Positions 3,001 through 6,000 of a stretch of DNA of 6,568 nt are shown here, in pieces. The stretch's first letter is position 1; each line of letters opens with the position of its first letter. The position numbers are program-made. Origin of the DNA: a virus (lineage: Duplodnaviria; Heunggongvirae; Uroviricota; Caudoviricetes). The stretch spans positions 1 to 6,568 of IMG/VR virus record IMGVR_UViG_2645728091_000011; one strand, 5' to 3'.

Positions 3001-6000
3001 AGCAGTTTTTCATGGATATTGTTGCCGGGTTATGCGAAGGGGATGAACCGTCACCGGAAAAGCGCCCCGTAATTTTAGATGCGCAGGATGTATTGATAAC
3101 CTACAAAGGAAAGCTACCGGGAAGAATTACTTGTTCTCTGAAGATGCCGCCGTCAACACTGCGGTCAGAAAAAGATGATGTTGAATCGCGTATTGAAAAA
3201 CTGGAGTGCTATATCGCTGAATTGAAAAAAAGCACCCCAACAAAAAATGAGGTGCTTGCAGCAGACGAAATGAAAGAAGCTATTCCTGATCGCGCGGCGA
3301 ATCTAAGCTGCGCTTCATGGTTGAAAGAGCATCTTCAGCAGCCTGAAAAAAAACGCCGCGATGAGCAGTTTGCTGCGTTTTACGATTATTGCCGGAAAGT
3401 GATGAGCAGAAATCTCGCAGAGTGTTTCAGTATTCATAATGATAATTTCAGTGACCTGGAATGGGAGTGTAACCGGCCATCCTTTGTTGTATCCGGTGAT
3501 GCTGGGAAAATAACCATCTCAGAAAATGGAAAAGTAACACCGCCATCGCACCAGCATAGTGAGGAGCTCATTGAATTTGCCATTGATTACCTGAAGAACA
3601 ATAAAAAGCAGGGGCTGATGAAGTGCATTGGTCGTTGCATGGGATATCTGCAGATAGCTGCTGAGATTGAAGCGCTGGCCAGTGATGCGGACAAGGATGC
3701 AGTTGTGCGGGAGGCTCTTCTTCGTGATTTTGATAATCCGCCCTTTAAAAAAAGTGCCGGCTTACTGGTTTCATCCAGGACTGACTTATCTTAAAGGACG
3801 TATATAAGCTGGCTCGTTATCTGTTGCCGATAAATCCTGATAAATATCCATGAACACCAAAATCAAATACGGCCTGTCGGCTGCTGTTCTGGCGCTGATT
3901 GCCGCTGGTGCGCCTGCGCCTGACATTCTCGACCAGTTTCTGGATGAAAAGGAAGGTAACCACACCACGGCATACCGTGATGGTGCGGGGATCTGGACCA
4001 TCTGCCGTGGTGCCATCATGGTGGATGGTAAACCTGTTGTTCCAGGCATGAAGTTGTCGAAGGCAAAATGCGCTCAGGTTAACGCCATTGAGCGTAATAA
4101 GGCGCTGGCATGGGTGGAGAAAAACATCAAAGTGCCATTGACCGAACCACAGAAAGCGGGGATTGCGTCATTCTGTCCGTACAACATTGGCCCCGGTAAG
4201 TGTTTCCCGTCGACGTTTTATAAACGAATTAATGCAGGCGATCGCAGGGGGGCGTGTGAGGCGATTCGCTGGTGGATTAAGGACGGTGGCAGAGACTGCC
4301 GTATTCGCTCAAACAACTGTTACGGTCAGGTATCCCGTCGCGACCAGGAGAGTGCGCTGGCGTGCTGGGGAATTGACAGATAAGCAGAATATTTTGCTGA
4401 AAAATGCGGTTTGCTCACACGGACGGATAACACGAAATCCTGCGAACTGACAAAAACTAAGTGAATAAAAGTAAAAACCCCGTTTGTTGGCTGCAAGCGG
4501 GGTTTTGTGTTTCCTGACTCTGGAAAAGTCAAAGGAGAAAGTGTGTTTGATTTTAGCAAACTGATTCGGGAGATTCGAGTGATGGCTGAAAAATTATCCA
4601 CCTGGAAGTTCATTCTTATCTGGCTGGTGTTTGTGATTATGGCCTCCGGTTATTTCATCGGTCAGATACGCTGGTGGTGAAATGAACCGCGTACTGTGCG
4701 TGGTCATCATTGCCCTGCTGGTGGCCTGTGGTGCGCTTAGTCTGGGGCTGAATCATTACCGTGATAACGCCATAACCTACAAAGAGCAGCGCGATAAAAA
4801 AGTCAGTGAGCTGGAGCAGGCAAATGCAACCATTACTGATATGCAGCAGCGCCAGCGTGATGTTGCTGCACTTGATGCCAGATACTCGAGGGAATTAGCC
4901 GATGCGAGAGCTGAAAATGAAACTCTTCGCGCTGACGTTGCCGCTGGTCGTAAGCGCCTGCGGATCAACGCCACCTGTCCAGGCTCCGTGCGTGAAGCCC
5001 CCACCACCTCCGGCGTGGATAATGCAACCGGCCCCCAACTGGCAGACACCGTTACACGGGATTATTTCACCCTCAGAGAGCGGCTGATGACGATGCACAA
5101 GCAACTGGAAGGGGCACAGGACTATATCCGCACTCAGTGCCTGAAATAAGTTTTGTTGATGCGCCGTATCGTCGCTGTATTCCCTCATTAACAGAGACCG
5201 CAGCCCGACAGGGAGACTCCTCTGCGCGAGTGTGCGGGGATAATCAAAAACGATACACACCGGGGTTTACCGCGTTAACGGAGCGCGGCGTTGTCCCCTC
5301 ATAGTCGCCTGTCCGGTGCGATGGTGGAAGAAGCCGGATGTTTATCACTATTAATTGATGACACAGAAATGGATTCATTGAATTTCAGCACGTTTTTGTA
5401 TTCGTGTTATTGAACATCTGTTTATTTTACTTTTAACATATTGATAATAAAAAGAGCTGTAAATCTTTAGATGAGTCGATTTTGTCCGGGGAAGTTCAAA
5501 TGGATTTTATGCTGACGGTTTCTGGTGTGGTTATCCTGTCCATTGCTTATACTGCAGATAAATATGGCTGCCATTTGTTATCACGTATTGGCGCTTATTG
5601 TTCGTTGATGCTGATTTTCTCGTCGCTTTTTTTTTGAGTAAGTTATATTAATTATAACAAATAATTTTCTGTGTTATTTTTTCAGGCTATCCCGTCAGAG
5701 GGGAAGCCTGTACTGCCGGGGAGCGAATGGAAAACTGATGTGTCCGGTAACTGCGTGTTCTGTGAACACCATGTTACTTAATTATGTAATTCATACCCGA
5801 ACTCTCTGTTGACAGCCTTCTTCTGCAGGCTTCAATAACCCACGCTGAAAAGTTTCCTGAACCTTTCAGATCAAGAGCGATGTTAATTTGTTCAATCATC
5901 TGGTTTGGAAATCGGATGTTGCGGGTTGTTGTTCTGCGGGTTCTGTTCTTTGATGACATAATGTTTCCCCATATTCAGTGTTGCTGATTTGTATTATCTG

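What the first reader, a model, noticed from the sequence alone, without database searches (positions are those of the whole stretch)
4543..4680. Strong-SD 45-aa membrane ORF translationally coupled to Rz
Seen: AAGGAG 5 nt before GTG 4543; the product has one hydrophobic helix and an amphipathic N-terminus; its stop lies 1 nt before the Rz ATG. Established: in lambda the R stop overlaps the Rz start, so about 300 bp carrying a hairpin and an extra small ORF between R and Rz is atypical. Inference: a fourth small membrane component of the lysis cassette (antiholin-like or spanin/holin modulator), or an Rz translation-coupling leader peptide.
Basis: partly seen in the sequence, partly recalled or inferred. 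Interest (0 to 1): 0.5.

Follow-up and report, generated by a model that had tools for sequence, protein, structure and literature searches.

The report
Mobile small-membrane-protein cassette before Rz
The 45-codon reading frame between the phage lysozyme and Rz genes is a real, conserved gene for a tiny membrane-anchored protein, but it rides on a portable cassette that also sits among tail genes of unrelated phages and appears to carry its own antisense-RNA switch, so it is probably not a dedicated lysis gene.

Summary
In detail: AAGGAG 4532-4537, GTG 4543, stop 4678-4680 one base before the Rz ATG, amphipathic helix plus one membrane helix. The frame is under purifying selection (median dN/dS 0.25 over 19 diverged copies). 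It belongs to an uncharacterised stand-alone family (PHROG 6632; 75 clusters, Gamma- and Betaproteobacteria) and is present in 924 of 5426 complete E. coli genomes.

It is part of a compact cassette: A-tract, GC hairpin, T-tract, a second hairpin pairing the ribosome-binding site, a weak GTG/TTG start, then the ORF. The cassette lies between unrelated endolysin and spanin families. It also lies after gpT, after the tape measure, before gpJ, inside baseplate clusters and between podovirus internal-virion genes. It is always co-oriented with the late genes and has no sense promoter of its own.

Synonymous change is almost abolished at codons 3-5 and 10-12, which read on the minus strand as TCGCAA-N17-TGCTAAAAT. 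Two unrelated small ORF types sharing the same leader carry minus-strand promoter-like sites at the same place.

Best reading: a moron-like cassette whose peptide is gated by a roughly 80-nt cis-antisense RNA (P22 sar/ant-like, SymR/symE-like). The peptide's function is unknown.

The parts
4384..4469 (+). Post-R flank shared with 933W/24B-type Stx phages. It is the left edge of a cargo slot, not part of the cassette.
   Evidence: Homology with 300+ phage records runs from R to about 4469 and then stops. In 24B and Sakai Sp15 an antirepressor follows instead.
4463..4516 (.). HP1: A-tract, GC-rich hairpin (stem 4474-4506) and T-tract. Terminator-like on both strands. It marks the left boundary of the cassette.
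   Evidence: Terminator scan. RNAalifold on 19 diverged copies keeps the stem, with one pair switching among AU 8, GC 6 and CG 5. The A-tract and T-tract are conserved in nearly all copies. In the Azoarcus copy only the minus strand has a T-run.
4513..4537 (.). HP2: small hairpin (TGACT 4515-4519 pairs with AGTCA 4527-4531) that abuts and partly pairs the Shine-Dalgarno sequence AAGGAG 4532-4537.
   Evidence: Folds. The same position holds stems of different sequence in other copies: CCTTG/CAAGG, CCTG/CAGG, CATG/CATG. In Pseudomonas and Azoarcus copies the minus-strand version is much more stable.
4543..4680 (+). 45-codon gene (GTG start) for a small single-pass membrane protein with an N-terminal amphipathic helix. 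Family PHROG 6632; RefSeq WP_000459345.1 'hypothetical protein'.
4568..4584 (+). Possible second start: GGGAG 4568-4572 followed by the in-frame ATG 4582 (invariant Met14), which would give a 32-aa form.
   Evidence: Met14 is invariant. GAG at codon 10 is kept in 18 of 19 copies, and a GGAG- or GAGG-like motif lies 8-11 nt before the ATG in those I checked. Some annotations call the 32-aa form. This is inference only.
4550..4578 (-). Predicted antisense promoter inside codons 3-12. The -35 is TCGAAT at 4578..4573 (TCGCAA in most relatives). The spacer is 17 nt. The extended -10 is TGCTAAAAT at 4558..4550.
   Evidence: Synonymous pair differences are 0/137, 0/95 and 0/153 at codons 3-5, and 18/171, 4/77 and 0/153 at codons 10-12. 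Elsewhere the fraction is 0.26-0.77. Amino-acid changes (D to N, S to I, F to I or L) still keep TAnnnT and TG. Equivalent promoter-like sites occur in ORF types B and C.
4466..4544 (-). Predicted cis-antisense RNA of about 80 nt. From its 5' end: complement of the start codon and SD, HP2', an A-rich linker, the HP1' terminator and a U-tail.
   Evidence: The fold of 4464-4546 minus strand is -21.9 kcal/mol, z = -4.7. The ends are inferred from the promoter and terminator. No transcript data are available.
4682..5149 (+). Rz (i-spanin) with Rz1 (o-spanin) embedded at 4902-5087. Rz starts 1 nt after the small ORF's stop. The ORF's last codons, TGG TGG TGA, form a GGTGG Shine-Dalgarno-like motif 4 nt before the Rz ATG.
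   Evidence: Pfam PF03245 and PF06085; PHROG 13 and 3198. Sequence.

Best explanation
The ORF at 4543-4680 is a real gene on a portable, moron-like cassette that has landed in the variable slot between R and Rz of this lambdoid prophage.

The cassette has five parts:
1. a hairpin flanked by an A-tract and a T-tract (HP1)
2. a second small hairpin that pairs the ribosome-binding site (HP2)
3. a weak GTG start
4. a 45-codon gene for a single-pass inner-membrane peptide: a basic amphipathic helix, probably cytoplasmic, then one membrane helix and a 3-residue RWW tail
5. a sigma-70-type promoter with an extended -10, embedded in codons 3-12 and pointing backwards.

Proposed mechanism (inferred). 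The backward promoter makes an antisense RNA of about 80 nt that ends at HP1 and is complementary to the start codon, the Shine-Dalgarno sequence and the leader. While late transcription is off or leaky, this RNA, together with HP2, keeps the peptide untranslated. The cassette has no sense promoter, so the peptide is made only when the Q-antiterminated late transcript crosses HP1 and outnumbers the antisense RNA. In this window, ribosomes finishing the ORF stop 1 nt before the Rz ATG and may pass on to Rz.

The peptide's own job is not known. I favour a membrane-active late function that is harmful if made early. I do not favour a spanin- or holin-specific partner, because the same cassette serves in tail-gene operons.

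Confidence by step:
- real coding gene: about 0.95
- mobile cassette that is not lysis-specific: about 0.9
- antisense promoter and RNA: about 0.6
- harmful-if-early late membrane function: about 0.35
For: Coding. The frame is kept in more than 10 genera. Five different Arg codons occur at codon 9 and there are many synonymous third-position changes. Median dN/dS is 0.25.

Family. PHROG 6632 has no known function. An exhaustive profile search found 75 clusters, all 31-95 aa and stand-alone.

Cassette. HP1, the T-tract, HP2, the SD and the ORF travel together in every context. Homology starts about 10 nt before HP1 and ends at the stop codon. Cassette GC is 3-12 points below the flanks in 14 of 16 loci.

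Contexts. The cassette lies between at least five endolysin types (phage lysozyme PF00959, GH19, M15_4, GH108, CHAP). On the spanin side, Rz and DUF2570/LysC have family hits; other downstream partners look spanin-like only by size or TM and had no Pfam hit. It also lies at six or more tail or virion positions, always co-oriented with its neighbours. The R-Rz gap holds other cargo in related phages.

Antisense promoter. Synonymous change is nil or near nil only at codons 3-5 and 10-12, two blocks 17 nt apart. GAT, TTT, AGC and CGA are kept even in GC-rich Pseudomonas prophages, which use GAC and TTC elsewhere in the same gene. The Azoarcus copy changes D to N and S to I yet keeps TGATAAAAT, and its hairpin has a T-run only on the minus strand. 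RNAalifold finds no conserved mRNA structure that would explain the two blocks. Two unrelated small ORFs share the same leader: type B (60 aa) and type C (48 aa). The tool's scan finds TAGTCA-18-TATACT and TTCACA-16-TAATAT on the minus strand in their first codons. These are the only promoter-like hits in 500-600 nt, where about 0.5 are expected.

HP2. The minus-strand version is far more stable than the plus-strand version in Pseudomonas and Azoarcus copies.
Against: - No transcript, TSS or ribosome data exist for either strand. Literature and Rfam searches found nothing.
- The type-A -35 (TCGCAA, or TCGAAT in the window) matches the consensus at only 3 of 6 positions. The tool's own scan does not call it in the window.
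- AT-rich early codons can also be selected for translation initiation, which might explain part of the codon 3-6 bias. That would not explain AGC or CGA.
- G-U pairs in the inner part of HP1 favour the plus strand in enteric copies, so the hairpin is also shaped for the sense RNA.
- A plus-strand terminator in front of essential tail genes is unexplained for phages that may lack antitermination.
- Toxicity of the peptide is pure inference.
Confidence: 0.55

Rival explanations
1. Dedicated lysis accessory. The peptide would be a fourth component of the lysis cassette, for example an antiholin-like timer, a SAR-endolysin release factor or a spanin modulator, made just before Rz and acting with the lysis proteins.
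For: In Enterobacteriaceae the cassette most often sits exactly between an endolysin and the spanin gene. This holds even when endolysins (lysozyme, GH19, M15_4, GH108, CHAP) and spanins (Rz, DUF2570/LysC, other spanin-like genes) are unrelated. The stop-start gap to the spanin is 1 nt in the window, SPN3UB, L012 and L013. Another small membrane ORF (phrog_4906, ECs_5741) also sits immediately before Rz in Sakai Sp15 and PhiR12_1. P2 lysA, from my own knowledge, is a membrane protein between the endolysin and the spanin genes that affects lysis timing. A possible dual start (GTG 4543 and ATG 4582) recalls holin/antiholin pairs.
Against: The same cassette, with the same leader, sits in tail, baseplate and internal-virion gene clusters far from any lysis gene in at least six arrangements. 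There is no similarity to any holin, antiholin, releasin or spanin family. It lacks the charged C-terminal tail typical of holins. The R-Rz gap is a general cargo slot that holds an antirepressor in 24B and Sp15.
Confidence: 0.2
2. Translation-coupling leader ORF. Only the act of translating the ORF would matter, because it delivers ribosomes to Rz. The peptide itself would be irrelevant, as reported for orf45 upstream of anrP in Gifsy-1.
For: The stop lies 1 nt before the Rz ATG. The conserved TGG TGG TGA end supplies a GGTGG SD-like motif. The Gifsy-1 isrK-orf45-anrP locus is a precedent for an sRNA-gated upstream ORF coupled to the next gene (PMC4825925).
Against: The amino-acid sequence is conserved: dN/dS is 0.25 and the motif pattern is shared by 75 clusters. 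By contrast, the paper reports that orf45 has a conserved nucleotide sequence but a variable amino-acid sequence. Many copies are followed by genes with their own SD 15-60 nt away, or by non-spanin genes.
Confidence: 0.08
3. Type I toxin-antitoxin addiction module. A small hydrophobic toxin would be held in check by a labile antisense RNA, stabilising the prophage.
For: The peptide is hydrophobic, under 60 aa and uses a weak start. A cis-antisense RNA over the RBS is predicted. The cassette is mobile, lower in GC than its flanks and widespread.
Against: There is no sense-strand promoter within the cassette. Only 75-130 nt separate the upstream gene's stop from the ORF, and HP1 and HP2 fill that space. 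The cassette is always co-oriented inside late operons, so the 'toxin' would be transcribed only when the cell is already committed to lysis. No family of known type I toxins is matched. Toxicity is untested.
Confidence: 0.1
4. Prophage-expressed moron protein, for example a superinfection-exclusion factor like HK97 gp15. It would be made in the lysogen, and the nucleotide-level constraint in codons 3-12 would reflect translation-initiation or another non-promoter signal.
For: The cassette occupies typical moron positions (after gpT, after the tape measure, near lysis genes), encodes a small inner-membrane protein and has deviant GC. From my own knowledge, HK97 gp15 is a small inner-membrane moron product in the tail region that blocks DNA entry.
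Against: No sense promoter is detectable between the upstream gene and the ORF. A terminator-like hairpin lies upstream, not downstream, of the ORF. The two constrained blocks are spaced exactly like -35 and -10 elements, and they recur as promoter-like sites in types B and C.
Confidence: 0.07

Closest known systems
P22 sar RNA / ant (immI region); from my own knowledge
   Same: A small antisense RNA (about 69 nt) has its promoter inside the 5' end of the regulated gene. Its terminator lies in the upstream intercistronic region. It is complementary to the gene's ribosome-binding site. The sense gene has no promoter of its own next to it and is read from an upstream operon promoter.
   Different: ant encodes a soluble antirepressor of about 300 aa in the immunity region. 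Here the target is a 45-aa membrane peptide in late operons. There is no sequence similarity, and no RNA has been detected here.
SymR/symE and other type I toxin-antitoxin loci (Sok/hok, Sib/ibs); from my own knowledge
   Same: A short cis-antisense RNA starts at or just inside the start of a small gene and covers its SD. The regulated product in hok and ibs is a hydrophobic peptide under 60 aa.
   Different: Those loci carry their own toxin promoter and are free-standing. This cassette has none and is embedded, co-oriented, in phage late operons. There is no homology. Toxicity is unknown.
Morons of lambdoid phages (Juhala et al. 2000, as cited in PMC4104026), e.g. HK97 gp15, bor, lom
   Same: It is an extra gene present in some relatives and absent in others at the same junction. 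It has deviant base composition, is flanked by a terminator-like hairpin and occupies typical insertion slots (after gpT, after the tape measure, around the lysis genes).
   Different: Classical morons have promoter, gene and terminator in the sense orientation and are expressed from the prophage. Here the hairpin is upstream, the only promoter-like element faces backwards, and expression is expected only with the late genes.
Gifsy-1 isrK-orf45-anrP (PMC4825925)
   Same: A small ORF preceded by a terminator hairpin and a structured leader that hides its RBS, with translational coupling to the next gene. The 24B and Sakai Sp15 R-Rz gaps hold an antirepressor gene; I did not test whether that gene is related to anrP.
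   Different: IsrK is a sense-strand sRNA that acts in trans on its own read-through transcript. The paper reports that the orf45 peptide is not conserved. There is no Rfam IsrK hit here. The present ORF is protein-constrained.
P2 LysA / holin-antiholin accessory proteins; from my own knowledge
   Same: A membrane protein encoded between the endolysin and the Rz-like genes. A possible dual start.
   Different: LysA is a larger protein with several membrane helices. There is no similarity, and the present cassette is not confined to lysis modules.

Membership tests
Holin / antiholin | Sequence membership in a holin family (Pfam Phage_holin_*, PHROG 'holin') | tested here: not met
   No Pfam or NCBIfam hit. 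The only PHROG hit is 6632, 'unknown function'. The true holin of the window (2606-2812) hits PF04971.
Holin / antiholin | Encoded in the lysis cassette as a rule | tested here: not met
   About half of the diverged copies lie in tail, baseplate or virion gene clusters.
Holin / antiholin | Hydrophilic, highly charged C-terminal domain after the last membrane helix | tested here: not met
   The C-terminus is 3 residues (RWW) after the helix.
Holin / antiholin | Triggers or delays membrane permeabilisation | not testable with these tools
   Needs lysis curves.
Spanin (i-, o- or u-spanin) | i-spanin: N-terminal membrane helix plus a long periplasmic coiled coil. o- and u-spanin: a lipobox. | tested here: not met
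   The protein is 45 aa, the membrane helix is C-terminal, and there is no periplasmic domain and no lipobox Cys. Rz and Rz1 are the neighbouring genes.
Type I toxin-antitoxin | Small hydrophobic peptide (under about 60 aa) | tested here: met
   45 aa with one membrane helix.
Type I toxin-antitoxin | Antisense RNA gene overlapping or adjacent to the toxin mRNA | tested here: inconclusive
   A promoter is inferred from the synonymous-site constraint and from parallel sites in types B and C, and a terminator is present. No RNA data.
Type I toxin-antitoxin | Own promoter for the toxin mRNA | tested here: not met
   Cassette homology begins about 10 nt before HP1. The tool called no plus-strand promoter-like site in window 4200-5300, and my reading of the leaders found none. 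The intergenic space is 75-130 nt and is filled by the hairpins.
Type I toxin-antitoxin | Toxicity on overexpression, relieved by the RNA | not testable with these tools
   Needs an experiment.
Moron | Present or absent between the same flanking genes in related phages | tested here: met
   Lambda has an R/Rz overlap. 24B and Sp15 have ant in the gap. PhiR12_1 has type B plus a phrog_4906 ORF. The window has this ORF.
Moron | Base composition differs from the surroundings | tested here: met
   Cassette GC is 3-12 points below the flanking 2 kb on each side in 14 of 16 loci.
Moron | Own sense promoter and downstream terminator | tested here: not met
   The hairpin is upstream and no sense promoter is present. 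The ORF runs straight into the next gene.
sar/SymR-type cis-antisense control | Backward promoter within the first codons of the target gene | tested here: inconclusive
   Sequence evidence is strong, but the -35 is weak in type A and there is no TSS mapping.
sar/SymR-type cis-antisense control | Terminator in the upstream intergenic region, giving a 60-90 nt RNA that covers the RBS | tested here: met
   HP1 has a minus-strand T-run. The predicted RNA is about 80 nt and folds at z = -4.7.
Coupling leader ORF (orf45-like) | Peptide sequence not conserved while the nucleotide sequence is | tested here: not met
   dN/dS is 0.25, and frame-0 identity is 54% against 31-38% in the other two frames.

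The most novel reading that the evidence does not exclude
A previously unrecognised class of phage cassette. A shared leader (a two-way terminator-like hairpin plus an RBS-pairing hairpin) would double as the body of a cis-antisense sRNA. It is fused to interchangeable genes for tiny membrane-anchored peptides (types A, B, C and hybrids), each carrying its own backward promoter in its first codons. The cassette hops between late operons (lysis, tail, baseplate, internal virion) of sipho-, myo- and podovirus-like prophages across Gamma- and Betaproteobacteria. It would deliver a late-only, antisense-locked membrane effector.
Probability: 0.4. Interest if true: 0.7.

Novelty: new variant of a known kind. 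Interest (0 to 1): 0.55.

Why it matters
The cassette is in 924 of 5426 (17%) complete E. coli genomes. It is also present in H-19B, in part of the Stx1a-, Stx2a- and Stx2c-converting phage records, and in P. aeruginosa prophages whose variant is indexed on several hundred contigs. The listed RefSeq rows mostly leave it unannotated, and it has never been studied.

If the antisense lock is real, it adds a compact, transferable 'late-only' expression switch to the known repertoire of phage regulation. It also adds a new family of small membrane proteins that act at the end of infection. For Stx phages it sits in the operon that controls toxin release, so any effect on lysis timing or Rz supply would bear on toxin output.

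It is also a clean example of nucleotide-level constraint inside a coding region revealing a hidden element on the opposite strand.

Tried and rejected
- Minus-strand promoter-like site at 4665..4636, found by the scan. It is not conserved in SPN3UB, so I dropped it.
- Rfam on the window (E up to 1) and on six related loci (E up to 0.1). No family matches the leader. The rimP-leader hit (29.9 bits against a gathering score of 47) is only hairpin resemblance.
- Long-range mRNA structure as the cause of the constrained codons. The single-sequence fold of the window suggested pairing of GUUUCCUGA with codons 9-11. RNAalifold on 19 copies keeps only HP1.
- Sigma-54 or a plus-strand promoter reading of the two blocks. 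By inspection there is no GG/GC -24/-12 arrangement and no conserved -10 downstream.
- IsrK/orf45 identity. This is a different locus logic, and that peptide is unconserved.
- Literature searches for the accession, the peptide string, spanin-adjacent small ORFs and type I TA in lysis cassettes found nothing relevant. Tree et al. 2014 describes convergent sRNAs at the PR' moron site, not here.
- Population-level SNP map in 26 E. coli copies. It was too invariant to be informative: only 5 variable ORF sites. Variable sites did fall in the HP1 and HP2 loops and left of the cassette.
- Structure search was not attempted, because a 45-aa helix-kink-helix model would give meaningless matches.
- A PADLOC scan was not run.
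- Whether strain Sakai carries the cassette was not settled. Its Sp15 R-Rz gap holds ant plus ECs_5741 instead.
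Full report
**1. What the window is**

The window is the late region of a lambdoid, Stx-phage-like prophage. In order it holds:
- an STnc100-type sRNA match at 28-240
- a NanS-p-like sialate esterase at 463-2313
- a phage-21-type holin at 2606-2812
- a DUF1327/YdfR-family ORF at 2817-3794
- a phage lysozyme R at 3850-4383
- a 298-nt gap
- Rz at 4682-5149 with Rz1 embedded at 4902-5087
- a YlcI/YnfO gene on the minus strand
- Nu1 from 6348.

**2. The observation**

AAGGAG is at 4532-4537. Five bases later comes GTG 4543. The frame is 45 codons and ends at TGA 4678-4680, and one base later is the Rz ATG. 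AlphaFold2 with a 17-sequence alignment gives helix 4-17, a kink, then helix 20-43, with pLDDT 82. A terminator-like hairpin lies at 4474-4506. In lambda, R and Rz overlap by 4 nt, so the gap is indeed atypical for lambda.

RefSeq sometimes annotates the ORF (WP_000459345.1, 'hypothetical protein') and often does not. CP-1639 calls it 'putative bacteriophage protein'. The cassette region 4470-4680 is present in 924 of 5426 complete E. coli genomes, at 1347 places.

**3. It is a real protein-coding gene**

- Salmonella phage SPN3UB has the same arrangement at 67% amino-acid identity, with a run of synonymous third-position changes.
- Word-indexed and exhaustive profile searches give a stand-alone family of 31-95-aa proteins, 75 clusters at 50% identity. 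Members occur in Escherichia, Salmonella, Enterobacter, Citrobacter, Klebsiella, Providencia, Pseudomonas and metagenomes. The genome scan adds Yersinia, Edwardsiella, Pantoea, Brenneria, Sodalis and an Azoarcus MAG.
- I took 19 copies that differ by more than 4% in nucleotides. Median dS is about 1.5, median dN is 0.37 and median dN/dS is 0.25. Amino-acid identity is 54% in the real frame against 38% and 31% in the other two.
- Codon 9 uses five different Arg codons, so the N-terminal part upstream of Met14 is translated.
- No Pfam or NCBIfam family matches. The only PHROG hit is 6632, 'unknown function'.

**4. It travels as a cassette and is not tied to lysis genes**

In every copy the ORF is preceded by the same elements:
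- an A-tract
- a GC hairpin (HP1)
- a T-tract
- a conserved spacer of about 35 nt that forms a second hairpin against the SD (HP2)
- a GTG or TTG start.

Homology begins about 10 nt before HP1 and ends at the stop codon.

HP1 shows a pair that switches among AU 8, GC 6 and CG 5. HP2 keeps its position with different stems: TGACT/AGTCA in the window, and CCTTG/CAAGG, CCTG/CAGG or CATG/CATG elsewhere.

The neighbours differ.
- Lysis contexts. The upstream endolysin can be a phage lysozyme, GH19, M15_4, GH108, CHAP or an unassigned type. The downstream gene can be Rz/Rz1, DUF2570/LysC or another spanin-like gene.
- Tail and virion contexts: baseplate spike to sheath-initiator in SEN34-like myoviruses; tail-tip K to I in Pseudomonas siphoviruses; directly before gpJ; after gpT; after the tape measure; between a T7 gp14-like and an SLT internal-virion protein; and after an LPD38 protein.

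The cassette is co-oriented with its neighbours in every locus examined. Its GC content is 3-12 points below the flanks in 14 of 16 loci.

In the window, homology with 933W/24B-type phages runs from R to about 4469 and stops exactly where the cassette starts. Those phages carry an antirepressor there instead. So the R-Rz gap is a cargo slot and this ORF is one of several cargos.

**5. A hidden element on the opposite strand**

Across the 19 copies I counted, for each codon, the fraction of same-amino-acid pairs that use different codons. It is 0.26-0.77 at almost all codons. The exceptions are:
- codons 3, 4 and 5 (GAT; TTT, ATT or CTT; AGC): 0/137, 0/95 and 0/153
- codons 10, 11 and 12 (GAG, TTG, CGA): 18/171, 4/77 and 0/153.

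The same genes use GAC, TTC, TCN and other Arg codons elsewhere, even in GC-rich Pseudomonas prophages.

The two blocks are 17 nt apart. On the minus strand they read TCGCAA-N17-TGCTAAAAT, a sigma-70 promoter with an extended -10 and a weak -35. In the window this is TCGAAT at 4578..4573 and TGCTAAAAT at 4558..4550. Amino-acid replacements keep the motif: D to N, F to I or L (TAATAT, TAAGAT), and S to I in Azoarcus (TGATAAAAT).

RNAalifold finds no conserved sense-strand structure involving these codons.

A start about 7 nt downstream of the -10 falls on the complement of the start codon. Transcription would then cross the SD and HP2 and end at HP1, whose minus-strand T-run is conserved. In the Azoarcus copy the minus strand has the only T-run. 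The predicted 83-nt RNA folds at -21.9 kcal/mol, z = -4.7. In Pseudomonas and Azoarcus copies HP2 is much more stable on the minus strand, at -11 to -16 against -4 to -8 kcal/mol.

**6. Independent support from other ORF types**

An exact-pattern scan for the HP2/SD part of the leader returned other small ORFs that combine an N-terminal basic or amphipathic segment with a C-terminal hydrophobic helix, behind a homologous leader:
- type B, 60 aa, MEKYKRILLRLTMKNG...LVIALKS (also in PhiR12_1)
- type C, 48 aa, MNINLGEWVVKALELF...VVRWW
- hybrids with a type-A N-terminus and a type-B C-terminus.

Their first codons are unrelated to type A. Even so, the tool's promoter scan finds minus-strand sites there: TAGTCA-18-TATACT in type B and TTCACA-16-TAATAT in type C. 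These were the only promoter-like hits in 500-600 nt, where about 0.5 are expected on both strands together. Three different coding sequences therefore each provide a backward promoter at the same place. This is the strongest argument that the promoter is a selected feature.

**7. Mechanism proposed**

Shown:
- a conserved coding gene
- a conserved leader with two hairpins
- no room and no motif for a sense promoter
- nucleotide-level constraint shaped like a backward promoter.

Inferred:
- An antisense RNA of about 80 nt is made from the prophage. Together with HP2, it blocks the RBS of any read-through sense RNA.
- The peptide is produced only when antiterminated late transcription crosses HP1 in excess.
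- In the window, terminating ribosomes are handed to Rz. The gap is 1 nt, and the TGG TGG TGA end of the ORF gives a GGTGG SD-like motif.
- The peptide is a single-pass inner-membrane protein with a basic amphipathic helix, probably cytoplasmic by the positive-inside rule.

Its function is unknown. The antisense lock, the weak start codon and late-only transcription suggest that early expression is harmful.

An in-frame ATG at Met14 with its own GGAG-like motif may give a second, 32-aa form.

**8. Rivals**

- A dedicated lysis accessory is the main rival. It is favoured by the frequent endolysin-to-spanin position and by another small membrane ORF (phrog_4906, ECs_5741) right before Rz in Sp15 and PhiR12_1. 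The tail-context copies weigh against it.
- A pure coupling leader is contradicted by the protein-level constraint.
- A classical type I toxin-antitoxin module and a prophage-expressed exclusion moron both lack the required sense promoter.

**9. Comparison with known systems**

The closest analogues in logic are P22 sar/ant and SymR/symE. In both, a backward promoter lies in the first codons, the terminator lies upstream, and the RNA covers the RBS. In genomic behaviour the cassette resembles a moron.

It is not IsrK-orf45. It matches no Rfam family. No paper in the library mentions it.

**10. Unexplained**

- Why is a hairpin that looks like a plus-strand terminator tolerated in front of essential tail genes?
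- Why do G-U pairs in the inner part of HP1 favour the sense strand in enteric copies?
- What does the conserved post-R flank at 4384-4469 do?

**11. Verdict**

The feature is a real, widespread and unstudied cassette. I classify it as a new variant of known kinds (moron; cis-antisense-gated small membrane protein). It is of moderate to good interest and is directly testable.

Noticed in passing
window 28-240 (+) and 205-271: Full-length match to Rfam STnc100 (69.8 bits, gathering score 47), followed by back-to-back GC hairpins. This may correspond to the convergent sRNA pairs that Tree et al. 2014 describe at the PR' moron site of lambdoid prophages.
   Followed up: partly
window 4384-4469: The 86-nt stretch after the R stop is conserved in more than 300 phage records, whatever cargo follows (this ORF, ant, or type B ORFs). 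It contains a small hairpin whose stem sequence differs between phages, followed by CGGATAACACGAAATCC. Its function is unknown.
   Followed up: partly
L265 14749-14895 (-) = Sakai Sp15 ECs_5741; L143 1938-2069: A different small hydrophobic ORF family (phrog_4906, 43-48 aa, MSDKLITL...) lies immediately upstream of Rz in Sakai Sp15 (after ant) and in PhiR12_1. So Rz is often preceded by some tiny membrane ORF.
   Followed up: partly
L143 1741-1923; L212; L239; L153: A homologous hairpin leader precedes two other small ORFs with a C-terminal hydrophobic helix (type B 60 aa, phrog_1115; type C 48 aa, no PHROG hit). Hybrids occur (L007, L119, L120, L190), which indicates recombination at the start codon and in the middle of the ORF.
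   Followed up: yes
window 4568-4584: An in-frame ATG (Met14, invariant in the family) has a GGGAG 9 nt upstream. It could be a second start giving a 32-aa form. Some genome annotations call that shorter form.
   Followed up: partly
window 2817-3794: A 325-aa ORF lies between the holin and the endolysin. Its first 100 residues are DUF1327 (YdfR family), fused to further PHROG-unknown segments. In strain D1 the equivalent is annotated as a truncated pseudogene.
   Followed up: no
window 5482-5637 (+) and 5774-5959 (-): A 51-aa hydrophobic ORF lies in an AT-rich stretch after Rz. RefSeq annotates a 45-aa version as hypothetical at the matching place in strain D1. It faces a YlcI/YnfO-family gene. 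This is another small-protein island before cos/Nu1.
   Followed up: no
L003 2386-2502; L005 2671-2787: Extra tiny hydrophobic ORFs sit next to the cassette in other phages. A 38-aa ORF overlaps the endolysin stop in SPN3UB. Another 38-aa ORF (phrog_12997) lies right after the family member in Pseudomonas phages.
   Followed up: no
L002 (CP-1639) 2016-2800: In the cryptic Stx1 prophage CP-1639, no holin or R gene is annotated between stx1B and the cassette. The cassette follows stx1B after about 0.6 kb that carries only two minus-strand hypothetical ORFs, and it is still followed by Rz.
   Followed up: no
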